In this document: piece after piece, positions 478-7,607 of the stretch
How the letters are laid out: the number at the start of each line of letters is the position of its first letter
Position numbering within the stretch: position 1 is the stretch's first letter
NCBI RefSeq assembly: GCF_001598795.1
Contig: NZ_BCZP01000009.1
Span: 60,001 to 92,000, forward strand
Reading direction: 5' to 3'
DNA from: Delftia acidovorans NBRC 14950
Lineage (GTDB): Bacteria > Pseudomonadota > Gammaproteobacteria > Burkholderiales > Burkholderiaceae_C
Length of the DNA: 32,000 bases
Made by a program: the position numbers and the translations under genes
Notes under the pieces: model-generated
What the model was told of the DNA's origin: nothing
Seen by the model: the letters and a program-made list of their open reading frames with translations, nothing else
Databases searched by the model: none

Positions 478-793
478 CGCTCGCCCCCTTGGCTGCTGCC
501 TGGGCTGCGCGACCCGCGTAGTAGCAGAGAGCTGTTGTCACCGGGAACGCGCCAGGGCCTGGTCCGCTCGCAGGTTCGTGCCAGTTGCTCCAGCCGCCAC
601 GGCGCGGCACGCAGCGCATGTAGCCATGCACCGGCGCCCCGATTTCATCGCCGTCCTCGCCGTCGCTGGCTCGCACCCACTCGTCGCGGACTGCCTGCGC
701 TCGGAAGGCTGCCAGTTCATGGTGCCCGCGCGACTTCAGGAAGGCCTCGTCGTCGTTGTAGAGCTTTTTGATTTCCAGCGGATGTTTGCTCAT
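470..793 (-). CDS. hypothetical phage early protein (107 aa)
   Basis: Complete ORF, translationally coupled on both sides (790-793 ATGA-type overlap with the upstream gene). No recognisable motif. Confidence 0.65.
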   Translation of the reverse strand: MSKHPLEIKKLYNDDEAFLKSRGHHELAAFRAQAVRDEWVRASDGEDGDEIGAPVHGYMRCVPRRGGWSNWHEPASGPGPGAFPVTTALCYYAGRAAQAAAKGASDE

Positions 794-2124
794 TGGTCAC
801 CGCCTTCCTTGGCCTGGGCTGCGGCCACCGTGTCGAGGTCCAGTGCGGACTGGTTCAGCACATGGAACTGCGTGCACTCCAAGTAGCCAGCCTGGGCCGC
901 GCGCAGCAGCAGGGCATAGTCCACATCTGTCTCGTTGCAGTCTGCGAACTCTTCCACCGCACGCTTGATCTCCAGCAGCTCGGCGTGGGTGAACGCATCC
1001 ACTGCAGGCGCAGCAGGTGCTGCCATGCCCAGCAGCATGGTCCACGCGCGCTCGTAGTCATCCCAGGATTCCTGGTTGTATTTGCCGGCCGATGCACGGC
1101 TGGAGCCGAGGCAGGTCTGCCGGTCCTTCAGGAATTGGGCGAGGCGCTGGGCCTCGGCGGGCGCAGCAGGTGCCTGGGGCGCTGCTGCCAGCGCGGCATG
1201 CCAGGCCTGTTTCGCCATCAGCTTGGACCGGCCATCGCCAGCGCGCTCCCACCACGCATCGAATCCAGGCGGGGCTGCAGGCGCTTCCAGGGCGGGCGCT
1301 GCGTCCAGCAGTCGGCGCAGAGCCCATTTGCCCTTGGCGCCAGGCAGCATGGCAGAGCCGGGTTGGTCGTCGGGCAGCTCGTCCAGCAGGTCCAGGGCCG
1401 CGTCCAGCTTCTCGAAGTCGGCGCGCTGCACCTGAATGAAGCTTGCGCCCTCGTCGCTGCTGTCATCGGCGGCATGGGACGCAGCCACGGCCACGGCGCA
1501 GAGGGCTTCGAGTGCCTGGCGCTCCACCAGGGCCAGGGCCGGCCCAGCCACAGCTGCAGGCTGCTCGGCGCGGGTCCAGACCACTGCAGCGTTCAGCTCC
1601 TCGCCCTGGCCGATCCAGCGCCCGTCCAGCACACGCTCGCGGCTCACGGTCGGCGGCACGGCAATCGCACAGCGGCGGCCATCCTTCTCGATGTACTGGG
1701 CACCATAGACCGGCAAGGCTTGGTCCATCGTCAGCAGGTTGTTCACCAGGTCGGCCACGGTGCGCGTGGGGCAGATCCACTGGCGCTCGCCCTGGGGCGC
1801 AACAGCGGCAGGAGCTGCCCCGGCGAGCTCGATGTGCGCGACGAACTGGTCGTGCAGGCGCGGCAGCTCACACCACGCGACGACGTTGCCGCTAACGCCC
1901 CAATGCTGCTCCTCGTGCTGGTTCATCTCGTACCAGCCAGCGGGGCAGAAGTATTCGTCTTTCTCCTCGCTGTATTCGCCCCATTCGGGATCGGCGTCAT
2001 CCCCTAGCGGTAGGGTGTGCTGGGCTGCCCACATGGCGCGCATTGGGATCTTCGCGCCCTCCAGCCAAGCGAGGACGTAGCGGCCAGATTTCGGGAGAGC
2101 CTCGGAGGTCTTGATGATCTTCAT
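790..2124 (-). CDS. modular phage protein with DUF551-like N-terminal domain (444 aa)
   Basis: N-terminal 90 aa (EALPKSGRYVLAW...CPAGWYEMNQ...VVAWCELPRL) fit the DUF551 pattern. The remainder is split by five Ala/Pro-rich linkers (AAPAAVAP, QPAAVAGPA, APALEAPAAPP, AAPQAPAAPA, AAPAAPAV). Confidence 0.75.
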   Translation of the reverse strand: MKIIKTSEALPKSGRYVLAWLEGAKIPMRAMWAAQHTLPLGDDADPEWGEYSEEKDEYFCPAGWYEMNQHEEQHWGVSGNVVAWCELPRLHDQFVAHIELAGAAPAAVAPQGERQWICPTRTVADLVNNLLTMDQALPVYGAQYIEKDGRRCAIAVPPTVSRERVLDGRWIGQGEELNAAVVWTRAEQPAAVAGPALALVERQALEALCAVAVAASHAADDSSDEGASFIQVQRADFEKLDAALDLLDELPDDQPGSAMLPGAKGKWALRRLLDAAPALEAPAAPPGFDAWWERAGDGRSKLMAKQAWHAALAAAPQAPAAPAEAQRLAQFLKDRQTCLGSSRASAGKYNQESWDDYERAWTMLLGMAAPAAPAVDAFTHAELLEIKRAVEEFADCNETDVDYALLLRAAQAGYLECTQFHVLNQSALDLDTVAAAQAKEGGDQ

Positions 2125-2235
2125 GGTGAGTCTTTCAGGAAGAGACGGGAGCCAGGCACCAGGCGCTGGCAGTGGTGTTGATGACGTGGCCTGCGCGCTG
2201 CAGCAGCGGGCACGCGGCCTGGGGTGGGGTCGGGG

Positions 2236-4350
2236 TCATGCAGCAACCCCGTAGATCAGGGCTTCGTGCGCGAAGTTGGCGCGGGCCAGGGCCTCGGCGA
2301 GCGGCGGGCAGACGCTGTTGCCGCACATGCGGACCTGCGCGGTCGTGCTCAGGTCGATGAGGGGCACGTCACGCGGGTCGCTGGCTTGCTTGCCATTGCG
2401 GAACAGCAGGGCCGGGTCAGGCACGCGCTCGAAGTGGTAGTCGCGCGGGAAGCCTTGGGCCCGGAACAGCTCGCGCGGCTTGAGCATGCGCAGCGTGATG
2501 TCCACCAGCACCCACCACTGGCCGGCGTGCCACATGAGCACCAGCTCGGCCGGATCGGGGAAGTGCTCGGGCAGGTGCTTGTGCAGCAGCTCGGCGCAGA
2601 GCCGGGCGCGCTCGGCATGCTCGGGCGCCAGCGTTGCTGCCGGCACCTGGCAGGTCTGCACCAGGCCCATGCGCGCCTTGGTGGGCACGGTGTGCATGGG
2701 CTCGCTGCAGGCGCTGTCCTGGCCGCCCTCGCTGTAGTACTTCACGAGGTAGGCGGTGATGAGCCGCTGCTGGGTGCCGCTGGATGTGACCGTGGACATC
2801 GGATCGCCCACGGCGCGCCCGTCGCCGTCATAAAACCCGCCGTTGGCCTGCTCCAGGCACGCGGCCACCATGGCCTGCTCGCCCCGGTGGGCGCCCGTCA
2901 CGGTGCGCAGCGGCTCGCGCGGGTCGTTTCCGGTGCGCTCGCCGTGGTGCGTGAGGTGGGTCAGGTGCACGGCAGCCAGCGCGCTGGTGCCGCCGCTGGC
3001 GGTCACGGTGTTGAGCGGCACCTCCAGGCTGCGGATGCCGTGGCTGAAGCGCTTGCCGCCGGCCGGGCCCTCGCCGTGGCCCATGTCCACCAGGTGCGCT
3101 GCCACCAGGGCATGGTGGCCGCCTGTTGTCACGGTGCGCAGTGGGCTGTCCGGTGCGGCGCCTGGGTGGCCGGTGGTGTTGGTCATGACCAGGTGGCCCT
3201 GCACCACGGCGCTCTTGATGCCACCGGCCACCACGGTCCCCAGTGGCGTCTCGATGTCCTGCACGCGCGGCTGCTGGCCCTCTCGCTCGCCGTAGCCGAT
3301 GGTGACCAAGTTGGCGCCCACCAGCGCGTGATGTGTGCCAGACGCGGCCACGGTGGACAGCGGTGCATCCACGGCATGGCCGACCAGGTGCTGCTCGGAC
3401 GTGCCGCGCATCGGGGCCATGACGGGCGCCATCACTGGCTGGGCCACAGCGCGGTGGTTCTGCGTGGTGACGGTGCCGATGGGGCGATCCGTGGGCGCCG
3501 GCCTGCCCGAATACACCGGGCCGCCGGCACCGACGATGAACGGGCTGGCACTGGTGAGCACATGGCGCCACAGGCCCTTCGCCACGCGGCGCATGGTGTT
3601 GTCCACCAGGGCGCGCTTGCGGCCGAACACGCTCTCGGCATGCAGGTCGAAGTCGATGCACTCGGCGGCCGTGCGGTGCGCGGCCAGCTTGCCAGCGATC
3701 ACGCGCCGGTCGGTGGGCTCTGCGTGGGTCTGCTCGGGCCAGACGATGGGCAGGCCGTCGCGGCGGGCCACGAGGAACAGGCGCTTGCGGATGGTGGGCG
3801 TGCCGTGGTCGCTGGCGCGCAGCTCGCGCCAGTCCACCTGGTAGCCGTGGGCCTTGAGCTGGCGCACGAACGACTGGAAGGTCTTGCCGCGGCGCGCGGG
3901 GTCCGGCCGGGCCATGCCATCGGGGCCCACAAGGATCGGGCCCCAGGTCTGGAACTCCTCCACGTTCTCGAGCATGAGCACGCGGGGCTTGCACATGGCC
4001 ACCCAGCGCATGCCCACCCAGGCCAGGCCCCGGATGTGCTTCGACACGGGCGTGCCGCCCTTGGCCTTCGAGAAGTGCTTGCAGTCGGGCGACAGCCAGA
4101 CCAGGGCCACGGGCTGATTGCCGGTGACCTGAATGGGGTTCACGTCCCAGACCGATTCGCACAGGTGCAGCGTGTGCGGGTGGTTGGCCGCGTGCATCGC
4201 CAAGGCTTCCGGGTCATGGTTGATGGCGATGTCCACGGGCCGACCGAACGCGGCCTCCAGCCCGGTGGACGTGCCGCCGCCGCCGGCAAAATTGTCAATG
4301 ATCAACTCGCCGGGGAAGGCCAGCGGCATGGTGAAGTTGTCGCGCTTCAT
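2236..4350 (-). CDS. DNA (cytosine-5)-methyltransferase with expanded variable region (704 aa)
   Basis: Motif I DNFAGGGGTSTG, motif IV WLSPDCKHFSKAKG (Asp-Cys instead of the usual Pro-Cys), motif VI MLENVEEF, motif VIII TIRKRLFLVA, motif IX QGFPRDY, motif X GNSVCPPLAEAL. GGAG lies 9-12 nt upstream of the ATG at 4350. Eight P-x-x-T-V repeats lie between motifs VIII and IX. Confidence 0.95.
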   Translation of the reverse strand: MKRDNFTMPLAFPGELIIDNFAGGGGTSTGLEAAFGRPVDIAINHDPEALAMHAANHPHTLHLCESVWDVNPIQVTGNQPVALVWLSPDCKHFSKAKGGTPVSKHIRGLAWVGMRWVAMCKPRVLMLENVEEFQTWGPILVGPDGMARPDPARRGKTFQSFVRQLKAHGYQVDWRELRASDHGTPTIRKRLFLVARRDGLPIVWPEQTHAEPTDRRVIAGKLAAHRTAAECIDFDLHAESVFGRKRALVDNTMRRVAKGLWRHVLTSASPFIVGAGGPVYSGRPAPTDRPIGTVTTQNHRAVAQPVMAPVMAPMRGTSEQHLVGHAVDAPLSTVAASGTHHALVGANLVTIGYGEREGQQPRVQDIETPLGTVVAGGIKSAVVQGHLVMTNTTGHPGAAPDSPLRTVTTGGHHALVAAHLVDMGHGEGPAGGKRFSHGIRSLEVPLNTVTASGGTSALAAVHLTHLTHHGERTGNDPREPLRTVTGAHRGEQAMVAACLEQANGGFYDGDGRAVGDPMSTVTSSGTQQRLITAYLVKYYSEGGQDSACSEPMHTVPTKARMGLVQTCQVPAATLAPEHAERARLCAELLHKHLPEHFPDPAELVLMWHAGQWWVLVDITLRMLKPRELFRAQGFPRDYHFERVPDPALLFRNGKQASDPRDVPLIDLSTTAQVRMCGNSVCPPLAEALARANFAHEALIYGVAA

Positions 4351-4370
4351 CGGTTGGGGCTCCAGAAACG

Positions 4371-4402
4371 AAAAAAGCCTGGCGGCATTACCCGGGCAGG
4401 CT
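4371..4402 (-). terminator. weak hairpin plus T6 in the methyltransferase 5' leader (possible attenuator)
   Basis: AGCCTG/CAGGCT 6-bp stem (4376-4381 / 4397-4402) with a 15-nt loop, followed on the minus strand by TTTTTT (4371-4376). It lies about 20 nt upstream of the MTase start. Confidence 0.3.
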
Positions 4403-4441
4403 TTGAGATGGGAAGGTGGGAATCCGCAGTGGCCCTAGTGG

Positions 4442-4469
4442 CTTATTGGCGGCGGCGGATGCCTGTCAA
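4442..4469 (-). promoter_or_regulatory. candidate sigma70 promoter for the methyltransferase
   Basis: Minus strand reads TTGACA (4469-4464), 16-nt spacer, AATAAG (4447-4442), with AT-rich sequence upstream. Confidence 0.4.
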
Positions 4470-4491
4470 GCAAATAAATGCGTTGAGGGGG

Positions 4492-4519
4492 TTGCAATCT
4501 GGGAAAAGGGTTGTATTAT
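4492..4519 (+). promoter_or_regulatory. candidate plus-strand sigma70 promoter in the AT-rich island
   Basis: TTGCAA (4492-4497), 16-nt spacer, TATTAT (4514-4519). It fires toward the hairpin at 4531. Confidence 0.4.
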
Positions 4520-4530
4520 TGACTTAAAGA

Positions 4531-4563
4531 GGCCGTCAGCAAATGTTGTTGACGGCCTTTTTT
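4531..4563 (+). terminator. intrinsic terminator (strong on plus strand, possibly weakly bidirectional)
   Basis: GGCCGTCAGCAA / TTGTTGACGGCC 12-bp stem (one G.U) with a 3-nt loop, followed by TTTTTT (4558-4563). On the minus strand the same stem is followed by TCTTTAAGT. Confidence 0.75.
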
Positions 4564-4617
4564 CGTCCATCAGTTTCTGATGGTATTGACAATAACTAAA
4601 ATAATAGAAAGATAAAA

Positions 4618-4863
4618 ATGACAAAAAAATCTAATAAAAACAACAATCTAACTTTTTCTTGCGGGCATGTTGCTCGCAGAGGGCGTGGTCGTTCCAACCG
4701 ATGCACCCGGGCCTTTTCCAAGGTACAAGCGGCCTATCGCATATTCAAATGGGGTCAAGATTTGGACTTGGACTTGGACTTGGACTTGGAGCATGGCGAC
4801 TCCAGCGGCTGGGGTGAATGGTTCGCTGAGAACGTCCTTGGCTTCTTTACTGGCGGTTTGTGA
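4618..4863 (+). CDS. doubtful orphan ORF (81 aa) containing the (LD)n-encoding hexamer repeat
   Basis: Only plus-strand ORF in the intergenic island. AT-rich 5' end, weak SD (AGAAAGA). The C-terminal half (GDSSGWGEWFAENVLGFFTGGL) looks protein-like. No homology recognised. Confidence 0.25.
   Translation: MTKKSNKNNNLTFSCGHVARRGRGRSNRCTRAFSKVQAAYRIFKWGQDLDLDLDLDLEHGDSSGWGEWFAENVLGFFTGGL
4762..4790. repeat. hexanucleotide microsatellite (TTGGAC) x 4.8
   Basis: Perfect tandem copies ttggac ttggac ttggac ttggac ttgga read directly from the sequence. Confidence 0.95.
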
Positions 4864-4901
4864 ATGCAGGACCTATTGCAGGCCCCGCATTTGCGTCTGC
4901 T

Positions 4902-5216
4902 TCAAGTGGCAGGCGAGACCTGGAACGGCGCGCGATCCTTACCGTTGATCCAGTTCGGCGGCTTGCCCCTGCCGGTCCAGGTGGCGCCGGTGGCGGGGTC
5001 ACGGTACTTCGGTGCGCCCACGCTGCCGGCCTTCTTTGCTTTTGATCCGGGAAAAAGCTCATCAGTCGTGATGCCGTGCTCATCAGCAAGTGAGCGGGCC
5101 TGCAGGGTGATCTCGCGGAGTTGCAGGATTGCTTGGGCGCGCTCTGCAGCCCGAGCGGCTGCAATCTGTGCATCGAGTTCTGCCCTCTTGGCCAGCAGTG
5201 TCTGGTAGTCGCTCAT
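4902..5216 (-). CDS. H-NS family nucleoid-associated protein (104 aa)
   Basis: N-terminal coiled coil (LLAKRAELDAQIAAARAAERAQAI) and C-terminal DNA-binding signature KYRDPATGATWTGRGKPPNW typical of betaproteobacterial H-NS/Bv3F-like proteins. SD AAAGGAAG. ATGA coupling to the upstream gene. Confidence 0.85.
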   Translation of the reverse strand: MSDYQTLLAKRAELDAQIAAARAAERAQAILQLREITLQARSLADEHGITTDELFPGSKAKKAGSVGAPKYRDPATGATWTGRGKPPNWINGKDRAPFQVSPAT

Positions 5217-6323: not shown

Positions 6324-7163
6324 TCAGGCCTTGGTGTAGGTGCCGATGAGGACCGGCGAAGTGTTTTCAACTGCCGTGCGGATGAGCGTGGCGAACTCGT
6401 TGGCCATCTGCTCCACCTGCTCCTCAAAAGCGGCCGGGCGCAGGATCAGCCGTGGCTTGTCATCCAGCAGCACGCTCAGCCGCAGCGAGAACGTGCGCGT
6501 CTGCAGGTCCGGGTAGGGCGTGCAGGTGAAGAGCAGGTGTGTGGGCAGCGTGTGGCTGCTGCTGGCCCGCGCCCTCTCCAGCACGGATTGCTCGGTGCTC
6601 AGGGCCTGCACATTGCTCTGAGCCTTCTTCATTGCCTCGACGGAAATGTCGCGGACTGCCGAGACCGCCTTGCGTACTTCCAGGGGCACACCATCGCTTT
6701 GCGCCTGCAGGAAAAGGGACCAGTCTTCGAGCCATTCGGCCATGTCCTTCTGGCTCTGTTGGCGGTTGATGATGGCGAGCAGCGCGGCGTAGGCTGCCGT
6801 GGCTCCTGGCTTGAGGATGGCTGTGTGCGCGCAGTGGCCGGGCTCGGTGGGCGTGCCCAGGTCCAGCACTGCCGTGGCGGTCATGGCCTCCGCATTCACG
6901 AAGACTGTGCAGCCCTCATCGCGGTGGCTGGCCATGTATGTCACGAAGTCGTTGATGTACGGCGAGACCATCTTGCCGGCGGCGCGGCGCCGGGCTGGCA
7001 GGTAGGCCTCCAGGTCGTGGACCTTGAACTGCTCAGGCAGGGCCAGGGCGCCGCTGTGCGTGCTCAGCGCGGCGGAGAGGGCGGCCTCGGCTTGGTCGAT
7101 GTCCTTCTCAGGCGCGCCCAGGGCGTGAGCGTTGGCGTGCAGGGCGGTGGAAGTGCTGTTCAT
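6324..7163 (-). CDS. DUF2303 / YfdQ-like phage protein (279 aa)
   Basis: Complete ORF with good codon bias. Size and the segment HDLEAYLPARRRAAGKM recall the Rac-prophage YfdQ family (from memory, not searched). Confidence 0.55.
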   Translation of the reverse strand: MNSTSTALHANAHALGAPEKDIDQAEAALSAALSTHSGALALPEQFKVHDLEAYLPARRRAAGKMVSPYINDFVTYMASHRDEGCTVFVNAEAMTATAVLDLGTPTEPGHCAHTAILKPGATAAYAALLAIINRQQSQKDMAEWLEDWSLFLQAQSDGVPLEVRKAVSAVRDISVEAMKKAQSNVQALSTEQSVLERARASSSHTLPTHLLFTCTPYPDLQTRTFSLRLSVLLDDKPRLILRPAAFEEQVEQMANEFATLIRTAVENTSPVLIGTYTKA

Positions 7164-7238: not shown

Positions 7239-7607
7239 TCAGGACAGCTGCTTGGCGCCGTCCTTTGCGTCGGCAAACATCTGTGTCTGGTTCTGGGGCA
7301 TGAGCGTCATCACGCCGAACTTGCCCACGTGCATCACCGTCTTGCGCGTGGCTTCCTCGGCGGCCTTGCCATCGGCCGTGGGCCGTGTGTACTTCAGGGT
7401 GTGCGACACGGTCACCTGGCTGGTGCCGGGGATGCGAGTGATCTTGAATTTCACGTCGACATCGCCCTGGCGGTCGTTGTCAACCACGCCGGCCGCCACC
7501 TTGCCCAGTGCGGCGGACAGCATGCGGTCGAACTGGCCGCCGTCGAGGTCGGTAATGAACTCGCTGACGTCTATTTGCGAGGCCGAAGTTTGGGGAACTT
7601 GATGCAT
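7239..7607 (-). CDS. hypothetical phage protein (122 aa)
   Basis: ATG at 7607 is preceded by AAAGGAG. Good codon bias. Confidence 0.7.
   Translation of the reverse strand: MHQVPQTSASQIDVSEFITDLDGGQFDRMLSAALGKVAAGVVDNDRQGDVDVKFKITRIPGTSQVTVSHTLKYTRPTADGKAAEEATRKTVMHVGKFGVMTLMPQNQTQMFADAKDGAKQLS

What the first reader, a model, noticed from the sequence alone, without database searches (positions are those of the whole stretch)
2656..3483. Cytosine-5 methyltransferase with eight tandem TRD-like modules (candidate hyper-multispecific anti-restriction methylase)
Between catalytic motifs VIII (TIRKRLFLVA) and IX (QGFPRDY), where C5-MTases carry their target-recognition domain, the protein has eight consecutive units. 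Each unit starts with P-[LIM]-x-T-V and is followed about 8 residues later by a hydrophobic (A/L)-(L/V)-V stretch. The units are: PIGTVTTQNHRAVAQ (aa 289), PLSTVAASGTHHALVGANLV (330), PLGTVVAGGIKSAVVQGHLV (369), PLRTVTTGGHHALVAAHLV (403), PLNTVTASGGTSALAAVHL (445), PLRTVTGAHRGEQAMVAACL (480), PMSTVTSSGTQQRLITAYLV (517) and PMHTVPTKARMGLV (551). Unit spacing is 34-42 aa, about the size of a single TRD. The T-V dipeptide sits where the conserved T-L/T-V of C5-MTase TRDs is found. Multispecific MTases of Bacillus phages (SPR, phi3T, rho11s) carry 3-4 tandem TRDs at this location and protect the phage against several R-M systems at once. Eight units in a proteobacterial prophage enzyme would be an extreme case. 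Motif IV is also non-canonical (SPDC rather than PPC).
Basis: partly seen in the sequence, partly recalled or inferred. Interest (0 to 1): 0.75.

Follow-up and report, generated by a model that had tools for sequence, protein, structure and literature searches.

The report
Prophage cytosine methylase with modular array
A prophage in Delftia acidovorans encodes a DNA cytosine methyltransferase carrying eight interchangeable ~40-residue modules where such enzymes read DNA sequence; relatives of this enzyme are published to shield DNA from many different restriction enzymes, so the modules are probably alternative reading heads, though that is not yet shown.

Summary
The 704-aa ORF (window 2236-4350, minus strand) is a C5 DNA methyltransferase. 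It has eight P-[LIM]-x-T-V units between motifs VIII and IX, against 0.045 expected by chance.

The array is not an oddity of this gene. It defines a very large family of phage and prophage enzymes with an SPDC motif IV, found in Proteobacteria, Firmicutes and other groups, and carrying 2-13 units. The variable region grows by about 42 aa per unit.

The units fall into about 25 conserved types. The query reads P-D-B-J-H-F-C-A. Each type is about as conserved as the catalytic domain. Type order is about 99% collinear, yet 79% of enzyme pairs with at least 95% identical catalytic domains differ in which units they carry.

Published experiments on homologues (Paracoccus JCM7686_0772 and _2655; Aeromonas ARM81mr_p29) report "relaxed specificity", with partial protection against 16 restriction enzymes of unrelated sites. 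Those papers do not mention tandem recognition domains.

A multispecific enzyme with many recognition modules is the best reading (about 0.6), but it is unproven. AlphaFold gave no usable model of the array, and homology to the Bacillus phage recognition domains is not detectable. Eight units is typical for this family, not extreme.

The parts
2236..4350 (-). Gene for the 704-aa orphan C5 DNA methyltransferase
   Evidence: ORF. Pfam PF00145 at 91.5 bits. phrog_116 'DNA methyltransferase' at 2e-96. 100% identical to D. acidovorans WP_034394109. The confidently modelled core matches the C5 methyltransferase fold.
4261..4302 (-). Motif I, AdoMet binding (IIDNFAGGGGTSTG, aa 17-30)
   Evidence: Invariant in alignment A1. 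Aligns to motif I of 3g7u and 8yf3.
4054..4098 (-). Motif IV with the catalytic Cys90 in the non-canonical form SPDC (WLSPDCKHFSKAKGG, aa 85-99)
   Evidence: Aligns to GGPPCQGFS of 3g7u. S87, P88, D89 and C90 are invariant in A1, and the equivalent residues are invariant in A2. SPDC occurs in 52 of the 62 representatives in which a motif IV was found.
3952..3981 (-). Motif VI, ENV (VLMLENVEEF, aa 124-133)
   Evidence: Alignment to PDB C5 methyltransferases. Invariant residues.
3766..3804 (-). Motif VIII (GTPTIRKRLFLVA, aa 183-195)
3424..3525 (-). Unit 1, type P (aa 276-309, PIGTV at 290)
   Evidence: (17.0 bits with the Firmicute-only profile).
3304..3405 (-). Unit 2, type D (aa 316-349, PLSTV at 330)
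3187..3288 (-). Unit 3, type B (aa 355-388, PLGTV at 369). This type is shared with Firmicute enzymes such as that of phi105.
3085..3186 (-). Unit 4, type J (aa 389-422, PLRTV at 403). Replaced by type G in 94%-identical P0003 and absent in P0015.
   Evidence: (29.3 bits).
2959..3060 (-). Unit 5, type H (aa 431-464, PLNTV at 445)
2854..2955 (-). Unit 6, type F (aa 466-499, PLRTV at 480). Absent in P0037.
2743..2844 (-). Unit 7, type C (aa 503-536, PMSTV at 517). This penultimate unit is present in nearly all family members (type E in Firmicutes).
2641..2742 (-). Unit 8, type A (aa 537-570, PMHTV at 551). This terminal unit is present in virtually all family members and sits where monospecific enzymes have their single TL element before motif IX.
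2437..2493 (-). Motif IX (LRMLKPRELFRAQGFPRDY, aa 620-638)
   Evidence: Aligns to motif IX of 3g7u and DNMT1/MET1.
2296..2331 (-). Motif X (RMCGNSVCPPLA, aa 674-685), with the canonical Asn678
   Evidence: G677, N678, S679 and V680 are invariant. This bears on the CmoX rival.

Best explanation
The gene encodes a prophage-borne orphan C5 cytosine DNA methyltransferase of a very widespread phage family with an SPDC motif IV. The canonical catalytic core is interrupted between motifs VIII and IX by a collinear array of eight recognition-domain-like modules of about 34-42 aa (types P-D-B-J-H-F-C-A).

Each module has an invariant P-x-x-T-V/I-T element, which is the counterpart of the T-L element next to the flipped cytosine in solved C5 methyltransferases. 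That element is flanked by two type-specific loops and followed by a hydrophobic strand.

Inferred mechanism: the modules are alternative DNA-reading heads that use the one catalytic core in turn. The enzyme would therefore methylate several unrelated short motifs and protect phage DNA against many restriction systems at once when the prophage is induced or infects a new host. Recombination in register between the conserved anchors of neighbouring or allelic units adds, removes or swaps heads, so the repertoire changes quickly.

Shown here: the enzyme class, the array, its modular turnover, and its conservation. Shown in the literature for homologues only: protection at many sites. Inferred: one unit equals one specificity, and the anti-restriction role.
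For: - Enzyme class: Pfam PF00145, PHROG 116, fold match to DNMT1, M.HaeIII and 3g7u, and motifs I, IV, VI, VIII, IX and X all present.
- Orphan gene in a prophage: CII-like regulator, primase and large terminase lie in the window, and no nuclease or defence neighbour was found.
- The repeat is real.
- Additive modules: the variable region fits 92 + 41.7 aa per unit, r = 0.93, for 2-11 units in 234 homologues. Up to 13 matched stretches were seen per protein among 1875 cluster representatives.
- About 25 unit types. Types A, B, G and J are shared between Proteobacteria and Firmicutes.
- 120 architectures in 234 proteins, with clean loss, gain or swap of units between 85-96% identical Delftia proteins.
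- 79% of pairs with at least 95% identical catalytic domains differ in architecture, while type order is about 99% collinear.
- Positions -14..-5 and +7..+13 around the core are conserved within a type and different between types.
- Units are as conserved as the catalytic domain: 0.65-0.89 against about 0.8 within a set, and 0.40-0.51 against 0.42-0.47 across phyla.
- Experiments on homologues: JCM7686_0772 and _2655 give partial protection against 16 restriction enzymes (AGCT, GGCC, CCWGG, CCSGG, CCGG, GCGC, ACGT, CTCGAG and others) and none against 12 others (PMC3925955).
- Link to this family: those proteins are about 69% identical to Pyei1_p05 (PMC6536676). Pyei1_p05 matches the query over 97% of its length and has SPDC plus 8 units. 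ARM81mr_p29, described as having 'relaxed specificity' (PMC5537653), has SPDC plus 5 units.
- Precedent: tandem recognition domains give multispecificity in Bacillus phage methyltransferases (PMC8936443; PMC12707154).
Against: - There is no direct data for this protein.
- AlphaFold2 gave pLDDT of 20-35 across the whole array, both for the query and for a 3-unit homologue with a 148-sequence alignment. The fold of a unit and its docking to the core are therefore unknown.
- The unit profile does not significantly match the SPR, rho11s, H2 or phi3T recognition domains. Profile-profile comparison aligns only motifs IV-VIII. No solved structure matches the unit profile.
- Protection in the published homologues was only partial, and the authors read it as relaxed specificity.
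- The last two units are nearly universal, and natural 2-unit enzymes exist. Those two units alone could make the functional recognition domain.
- Strict collinearity of types is also what a position-specific structural repeat would show.
- A related homologue (Phi2LM21_p23) showed no activity in E. coli.
Confidence: 0.6

Rival explanations
1. Relaxed-specificity enzyme with one functional recognition domain. Only the two near-universal C-terminal units (types C/E and A) form the real recognition domain and read a very short or degenerate motif. The upstream units are accessory DNA-binding arms that raise non-specific affinity or processivity, or they tune activity without defining targets.
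For: Types C/E and A occur in nearly every member, and natural 2-unit enzymes of 431 aa exist. [quoted passage not shown] The array is predicted with disorder-like confidence.
Against: The protected sites (AGCT, ACGT, GCGC, CTCGAG, GGCC, CCGG) share no single short motif, whereas CGCG, GATC, CATG and GGNNCC are not protected. Internal units carry type-specific residues conserved across phyla at the same level as the catalytic core, which is more than non-specific arms would need. The unit repertoire turns over rapidly while sequence within each type is preserved.
Confidence: 0.25
2. A single structural repeat domain. The units stack into one elongated beta-rich domain, like a solenoid, that contacts DNA as a whole. 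Copy number would tune footprint or affinity rather than add specificities.
For: The period is regular at about 42 aa, each unit contains a hydrophobic strand, and type order is about 99% collinear.
Against: AlphaFold2 did not build any repeat fold, even with 148 sequences. Internal units are deleted or exchanged singly in near-identical proteins. Unit number ranges from 2 to 13 with 120 architectures in 234 proteins. The published multi-site protection is not explained by this model.
Confidence: 0.1
3. Not a plain methyltransferase. The unusual SPDC motif IV marks a C5 transferase that installs another group, such as the carboxymethyl group added by CmoX, as a handle for hypermodification.
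For: The phage C5-carboxymethyltransferase 8yf3 is among the sequence and fold matches and shares the FAGGGG motif I. Motif IV is non-canonical.
Against: CmoX candidates are defined by SPPC plus an Arg (R350) that binds the carboxymethyl group (PMC12783734). The query has SPDC and the canonical G-N-S-V motif X, which is invariant in the family. No CmoA- or CmoY-like gene was found among the neighbouring ORFs scanned. The homologues block enzymes that are sensitive to 5mC.
Confidence: 0.03

Closest known systems
Multispecific C5 methyltransferases of Bacillus SPbeta-group phages (M.SPRI, M.Phi3TI, M.Rho11sI, M.H2I)
   Same: These are phage-borne orphan C5 methyltransferases with one catalytic core. 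Several contiguous recognition domains of about 40 aa lie between motifs VIII and IX, each built around a P/S-x-T-[LIV]-[TSN] element followed by G and a hydrophobic strand (sequences read). Related enzymes differ in which domains they carry, in a collinear order. Their role is anti-restriction (PMC8936443, PMC12707154).
   Different: They belong to a different lineage. The catalytic region is only 23% identical, and the match is confined to motifs IV-VIII. Their motif IV is SPC/FPC, not SPDC. The units are not detectably homologous. The Bacillus enzymes have 2-4 TL-type elements in 440-504 aa, against 2-13 here. The one-domain-one-target rule was proven genetically for the Bacillus enzymes (my knowledge: Trautner and colleagues; that paper is not held in the library) and is untested here.
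Large (~560-700 aa) prophage m5C methyltransferases with 'relaxed specificity': Paracoccus aminophilus JCM7686_0772/_2655, Paracoccus phage Pyei1_p05, Aeromonas phage ARM81mr_p29, Sinorhizobium Phi2LM21_p23, Rhizobium phage RR1-A
   Same: This is the same protein family. Matches cover the full length at 37-41% identity over 96-97% of the query. The three sequences I could read have SPDC and arrays of 5-8 units built from the same types. All are on temperate phages.
   Different: The published work describes a phenotype, namely partial protection against many restriction enzymes. In the texts I could read it does not mention a tandem module array. Unit sets differ from the query. The Delftia enzyme itself is untested.
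M.BceSV (Bacillus cereus ATCC 10987 prophage)
   Same: It is described as a multi-specific C5 methyltransferase, prophage-encoded and silent in the lysogen, that modifies GCNGC and other sites (PMC3526280; PMC6765204; PMC11347163).
   Different: I could not obtain its sequence or the primary paper. Whether it belongs to the SPDC family or to the SPR group is unresolved.
Monospecific C5 methyltransferases (M.HhaI, M.HaeIII, E. coli prophage CP-933R 3g7u)
   Same: They share the catalytic fold and motif order. Their single recognition domain between motifs VIII and IX contains one T-L-type element, which corresponds in position to the query's last unit.
   Different: They have one recognition domain, the canonical P-C motif IV, and a length of about 320-380 aa.
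Type I HsdS specificity subunits
   Same: Target-recognition modules exchanged by recombination diversify specificity while the catalytic machinery stays constant (an analogy only; PMC12707154).
   Different: HsdS has an unrelated fold, is a separate subunit, has two recognition domains used together for one bipartite site, and serves adenine methylation.

Membership tests
C5 cytosine DNA methyltransferases (Pfam PF00145) | Profile match above the curated threshold | tested here: met
   PF00145 scores 91.5 bits against a cut-off of 22.
C5 cytosine DNA methyltransferases (Pfam PF00145) | Motif I (FxGxG), motif VI (ENV), motif VIII (RxR), motif IX (RE..GFP) and motif X (GNS/AV) in the canonical order | tested here: met
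   DNFAGGGG, LENV, TIRKR, PRELFRAQGFP and CGNSV are present.
C5 cytosine DNA methyltransferases (Pfam PF00145) | Motif IV Pro-Cys dipeptide with the catalytic Cys | tested here: inconclusive
   Cys90 aligns with the catalytic Cys of 3g7u, but the preceding residue is Asp (SPDC) and not Pro. This is invariant in the family. The homologues are active, so the variant is compatible with catalysis.
C5 cytosine DNA methyltransferases (Pfam PF00145) | Rossmann-type catalytic fold | tested here: met
   The confidently modelled core matches DNMT1, M.HaeIII and 3g7u in Foldseek at E of 1e-9 to 1e-10.
NCBIfam TIGR00675 (dcm) | Score above the curated cut-off | tested here: not met
   81.1 bits against a cut-off of 100.65. 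Only the N-terminal half aligns because of the roughly 300-aa array.
Multispecific phage C5 methyltransferases (SPR/phi3T/rho11s/H2 type) | Phage-borne, with no cognate endonuclease | tested here: met
   Prophage genes lie in the window. No nuclease or defence hit was found among the neighbours.
Multispecific phage C5 methyltransferases (SPR/phi3T/rho11s/H2 type) | Several contiguous recognition domains of about 40 aa between motifs VIII and IX | tested here: inconclusive
   Eight units of 34-42 aa occupy exactly this position and have recognition-domain-like anatomy and modular behaviour. That they are recognition domains is inferred, and structure prediction failed.
Multispecific phage C5 methyltransferases (SPR/phi3T/rho11s/H2 type) | Each recognition domain confers one target sequence (shown by deletion and swap genetics) | not testable with these tools
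   This needs methylome analysis of unit deletions and swaps.
Multispecific phage C5 methyltransferases (SPR/phi3T/rho11s/H2 type) | Methylation of several unrelated sites by one polypeptide | not tested
   Not measured for this protein. Homologues give partial protection against 16 restriction enzymes (PMC3925955).
Multispecific phage C5 methyltransferases (SPR/phi3T/rho11s/H2 type) | Sequence homology to the group, including its recognition domains | tested here: not met
   23% identity confined to motifs IV-VIII. hhalign aligns only that block. The unit profile is not significant on the Bacillus recognition domains.
SPDC-type phage m5C methyltransferases with 'relaxed specificity' (JCM7686_0772/_2655, Pyei1_p05, ARM81mr_p29, RR1-A) | Full-length homology | tested here: met
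   tblastn gives 37-41% identity over 96-97% of the query, with E of 1e-106 to 1e-130.
SPDC-type phage m5C methyltransferases with 'relaxed specificity' (JCM7686_0772/_2655, Pyei1_p05, ARM81mr_p29, RR1-A) | SPDC motif IV and an array of PxxT[VI] units of the shared types | tested here: met
   ARM81mr_p29 has 5 units (M-N-O-E-A), and RR1-A and Pyei1_p05 have 8 units each. All three have SPDCKHFS.
SPDC-type phage m5C methyltransferases with 'relaxed specificity' (JCM7686_0772/_2655, Pyei1_p05, ARM81mr_p29, RR1-A) | Protection of DNA against many 5mC-sensitive restriction enzymes | not tested
   Published only for the Paracoccus and Aeromonas members.
CmoX C5-carboxymethyltransferases | SPPC motif, a conserved Arg (R350) that binds the carboxymethyl group, and an associated CmoA | tested here: not met
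   The query has SPDC, the canonical GNSV motif X, and no CmoA-like neighbour among the ORFs scanned.

The most novel reading that the evidence does not exclude
The family is a natural combinatorial library of DNA-reading heads. At least about 25 conserved peptide types of about 34 aa each specify a short DNA motif. They are strung in collinear arrays of up to 13 on one catalytic core, and the core uses them one at a time as flexible elements that fold on DNA. Recombination at the invariant PxxTV and hydrophobic-strand anchors reshuffles the repertoire faster than the catalytic domain diverges by 5%. Phages would thereby gain an evolvable, broad-spectrum counter to restriction systems. Researchers would gain a look-up table from peptide type to DNA motif.
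Probability: 0.4. Interest if true: 0.8.

Novelty: new variant of a known kind. Interest (0 to 1): 0.6.

Why it matters
Multispecific C5 methyltransferases have so far been a textbook curiosity of a few Bacillus phages with 2-4 recognition domains. How one catalytic core serves several recognition domains has, as far as I know, never been seen structurally.

If the units here are recognition domains, the same strategy exists on a much larger scale. It would occur in a separate lineage present in thousands of temperate phages across bacterial phyla, with up to 13 heads per enzyme and a repertoire that turns over quickly. That would explain the published 'relaxed specificity' of these enzymes.

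It would also make the recognition code of C5 methyltransferases directly testable, because nature has already provided single-unit deletions and swaps in near-identical backbones. Practical consequences include predicting phage host range, interpreting 5mC methylomes, and engineering methyltransferases.

If instead only the terminal units read DNA, the finding reduces to an ordinary member of a known relaxed-specificity family with an unexplained conserved repeat.

Tried and rejected
1. AlphaFold2 on the query with 68 homologues and on the 3-unit phi105-type homologue P0121 with 148 sequences. The catalytic core was confident in both, but the whole array had pLDDT of 20-35. The test of whether each unit forms its own lobe could not be made. 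Fold searches on the array would be meaningless, so only the core was searched.

2. Sequence homology of the units to the Bacillus phage recognition domains. The unit HMM against SPR, rho11s, H2 and phi3T was not significant, although the best local alignments fall on their PTITT and EPAFTVNTIDRHGVA elements. BLASTP of the terminal unit gave nothing. hhalign of family against SPR group aligned only motifs IV-VIII.

3. The unit profile against all PDB sequences gave no hit. The last unit plus C-terminus against the PDB aligned only motifs IX-X.

4. DNA-level tandem or direct repeats. Only short stretches that encode the motif were found, so recent duplication is rejected.

5. CmoX-like carboxymethyltransferase: rejected on SPDC, GNSV and the absence of CmoA.

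6. Restriction partner or defence-system context: none found. Rfam search of the window found nothing.

7. Primary papers that are not held in the library: Trautner 1996 EMBO J, Dziewit and Radlinska 2016 J Gen Virol, and Xu 2012 J Bacteriol on M.BceSV. As a result, the ARM81 specificity data and the family membership of M.BceSV remain unchecked.

8. Literature searches for tandem or multiple recognition domains in phage C5 methyltransferases outside Bacillus returned nothing relevant. This covers open-access text only and is not proof of absence.

9. An early single-linkage clustering of the units collapsed them into one cluster and included a spurious 'PAATL' hit downstream of the array. It was replaced by average-linkage clustering.
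Full report
**Observation.** The finding lies inside a 704-aa ORF on the minus strand, window 2236-4350. [quoted passage not shown]

P-[LIM]-x-T-V occurs eight times, at aa 290, 330, 369, 403, 445, 480, 517 and 551. The rest, and the 34-42 aa spacing, are exact. Aligned, the units read ...G..(R)......P-L-x-T-V-T-a-x-G-x-x-x-A-L-V-x-a-H-L-V.

Shuffles of the protein give 0.045 motifs on average, with a maximum of 3 in 100,000. A profile built only from Firmicute homologues recovers all eight units, at 104 bits against 6.5 for the best of 1000 shuffles.

The DNA shows no tandem repeat, only short matches that encode the motif itself. The units are therefore ancient and diverged.

**What the protein is.**
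- Pfam PF00145 matches the N-terminal half, and PHROG 116 'DNA methyltransferase' matches the whole protein.
- The confidently modelled core matches DNMT1, M.HaeIII and the E. coli prophage methyltransferase 3g7u.
- Motifs I (DNFAGGGG), VI (ENV), VIII (TIRKR), IX (PRELFRAQGFP) and X (GNSV) are canonical.
- Motif IV is SPDC, with Asp in place of the usual Pro before the catalytic Cys. This is invariant across the family.
- The array sits exactly between motifs VIII and IX, where C5 methyltransferases carry their target-recognition domain.
- The window is a prophage, with a CII-like regulator, a primase and a large terminase. No nuclease or defence gene is adjacent. The enzyme is an orphan phage methyltransferase.

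**The array defines a large family.**
- More than 8000 database proteins match the query.
- 139 phage genomes encode a full-length relative. These include Pseudomonas F116, Bacillus phi105, Myxococcus Mx4, Rhodobacter RcapNL, and phages of Klebsiella, Escherichia, Vibrio, Nostoc and Roseburia.
- In 234 homologues from two searches, the number of units runs from 2 to 11. The length of the variable region fits 92 + 41.7 aa per unit, with r = 0.93.
- A profile of the eight window units, searched against 1.84 billion cluster representatives, found 1875 proteins at E of 1e-3 or better and 830 at 1e-10 or better. Up to 13 matched stretches occurred per protein.

Eight units is therefore ordinary for this family.

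**Anatomy and evolution of the units.** Average-linkage clustering of 1581 units gives about 25 types, each with a strongly conserved sequence.
- The query reads P-D-B-J-H-F-C-A.
- Types A, B, G and J occur in both Proteobacteria and Firmicutes.
- The last two units (C or E, then A) are nearly universal, and the smallest natural enzymes (431 aa) are just E-A.
- I counted 68 architectures among 117 proteobacterial proteins and 52 among 117 firmicute proteins.
- Delftia proteins that are 85-96% identical differ by whole units with clean junctions. J is replaced by G in P0003, J is missing in P0015, B and J are missing in P0024, and F is missing in P0037. Unit M is missing in the query itself.
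- 79% of pairs with at least 95% identical catalytic domains have different architectures. Only about 1% of type-pair orderings depart from one common order.
- Around the invariant P-x-x-T-[VI] core, positions -14..-5 and +7..+13 are conserved within a type and differ between types. Positions -4..-1 vary freely.
- Units of one type are about as conserved as the catalytic domain in the same protein pairs. The values are 0.65-0.89 against about 0.8 within a set, and 0.40-0.51 against 0.42-0.47 across phyla.

These results show independent, selected modules. They do not fit decaying pseudo-domains or mere linkers. One caveat applies: the types were defined by sequence identity, so low variation within a type is partly built in. 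The contrast between positions, and the comparison with the catalytic domain, are the informative parts.

**Experimental evidence from homologues.** Dziewit et al. 2014 (PMC3925955) cloned two prophage m5C methyltransferases of Paracoccus aminophilus, JCM7686_0772 and _2655.
- They found partial protection against 16 restriction enzymes: AluI (AGCT), BsuRI (GGCC), EcoRII (CCWGG), NciI (CCSGG), Bme1390I (CCNGG), HpaII and MspI (CCGG), Hin6I (GCGC), PauI (GCGCGC), TaiI (ACGT), XhoI (CTCGAG), PvuII, CaiI, BglI, EcoO109I and HpyF10VI.
- They found no protection against 12 others, including those cutting CGCG, GATC, CATG, CTAG and GGNNCC. They called this relaxed specificity.
- Those proteins are about 69% identical to Paracoccus phage Pyei1_p05 (PMC6536676). 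Pyei1_p05 is one of my full-length hits and has SPDC plus eight units.
[quoted passage not shown] It also says that Aeromonas ARM81mr_p29 has relaxed specificity. Both are in my hit list and carry SPDC and arrays of 8 and 5 units.
- None of the texts I could read mentions tandem recognition domains.

The protected sites share no single short motif. That fits several heads better than one degenerate head. However, protection was partial, and the point is not settled.

**Comparison with the known multispecific enzymes.** I fetched the SPR, rho11s, H2 and phi3T methyltransferases. Their variable regions contain 2-4 elements of the same form: S/P-x-T-[LIV]-[TSN], then G, then a hydrophobic strand.

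They are a different lineage. Identity to the query is 23% and is limited to motifs IV-VIII. Profile-profile comparison aligns only that block. The unit profile is not significant on their recognition domains. The present enzyme therefore works like them, probably, but is not a member of their family.

M.BceSV, a prophage 'multi-specific C5 MTase' of B. cereus, could not be placed because neither its sequence nor the paper was available.

**Structure.** Both AlphaFold2 jobs modelled the catalytic core well and gave pLDDT of 20-35 for the entire array. This held even for a 3-unit homologue with a 148-sequence alignment. The result is compatible with flexible heads that order only on DNA. It is equally compatible with a failure of the method on variable-copy repeats. 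I count it as inconclusive. No solved structure matches the unit profile.

**Rivals.**
- A single functional recognition domain (the universal C/E and A units) with accessory upstream arms remains possible, at about 0.25.
- A rigid repeat domain is less likely, at about 0.1, given the single-unit losses and swaps.
- A CmoX-like carboxymethyltransferase is rejected. CmoX candidates are defined by SPPC plus Arg350 (PMC12783734), whereas this family has SPDC and the canonical GNSV.

**Verdict.** The gene is a member of a known but under-described phage family whose members have published multi-site protection. The modular array is real, under selection, and varies rapidly and combinatorially. It is the best available explanation for that phenotype.

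I file it as a new variant of a known kind: multispecific phage C5 methyltransferases, here in a separate lineage with far larger arrays. My confidence in the multi-head mechanism is 0.6. The decisive experiment is a 5mC methylome of the enzyme and of the natural single-unit variants.

Noticed in passing
window 4902-5216 (minus strand): A prophage-encoded H-NS family protein of 104 aa lies just upstream of the methyltransferase in the same orientation. It matches PF00816 over its C-terminal domain at 3e-12 and phrog_10171.
   Followed up: partly
window 4351-4900: A roughly 550-bp gap separates the H-NS-like gene from the methyltransferase. GC falls to 0.57 for window 4001-5000, against about 0.70 for the methyltransferase gene. 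The gap contains a very AT-rich stretch (about 4540-4660), a perfect hexanucleotide microsatellite (TTGGAC x 4.8 at 4762-4790), and hairpin-plus-T-run sequences near 4520-4560 and 4370-4400 (read). No Rfam family matches.
   Followed up: partly
window 790-2124 (minus strand): A 444-aa ORF lies immediately downstream of the methyltransferase and has strong coding GC3 bias. It has several Ala/Pro-rich linker-like segments. It has no Pfam, PHROG or PADLOC match.
   Followed up: partly
P0327 (1485 aa) and P0323 (1206 aa), homologues: Some family members are interrupted by intein-like insertions that begin with C and end with HN followed by C. In P0327 one sits at the catalytic Cys of motif IV (SPD-[C...VVHN]-CRHHS) and a second just after motif VI (ENVPEY-[C...VVHN]-CDWGPL). 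The sequences were read.
   Followed up: no
P0001 and P0024: The same Delftia acidovorans genomes (accession series KFJ and QQB) encode two paralogues of this methyltransferase, presumably on different prophages. Their unit sets differ: P-D-B-J-H-F-C-A (704 aa) and P-M-D-H-F-C-A (663 aa, 70% identity).
   Followed up: partly
window 6324-7163 and 7239-7607 (minus strand): Conserved phage genes of unknown function lie in the same leftward block: DUF2303/phrog_210 (279 aa) and phrog_204 (122 aa).
   Followed up: no
window 2224-4527 (plus strand): A 767-aa ORF runs antisense across the whole methyltransferase gene. It did not pass the GC3/GC2 coding filter that retained the methyltransferase frame. 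It is most likely a stop-free frame produced by about 70% GC, not a gene.
   Followed up: partly
L009 (Escherichia phage Eeyore) and E. coli genomes: An E. coli member of the family, next to a phage N6-adenine methyltransferase or PAPS-reductase-like gene, is present at 98% nucleotide identity in 13 of 5426 complete E. coli genomes. This offers a native-host system for methylome tests.
   Followed up: partly
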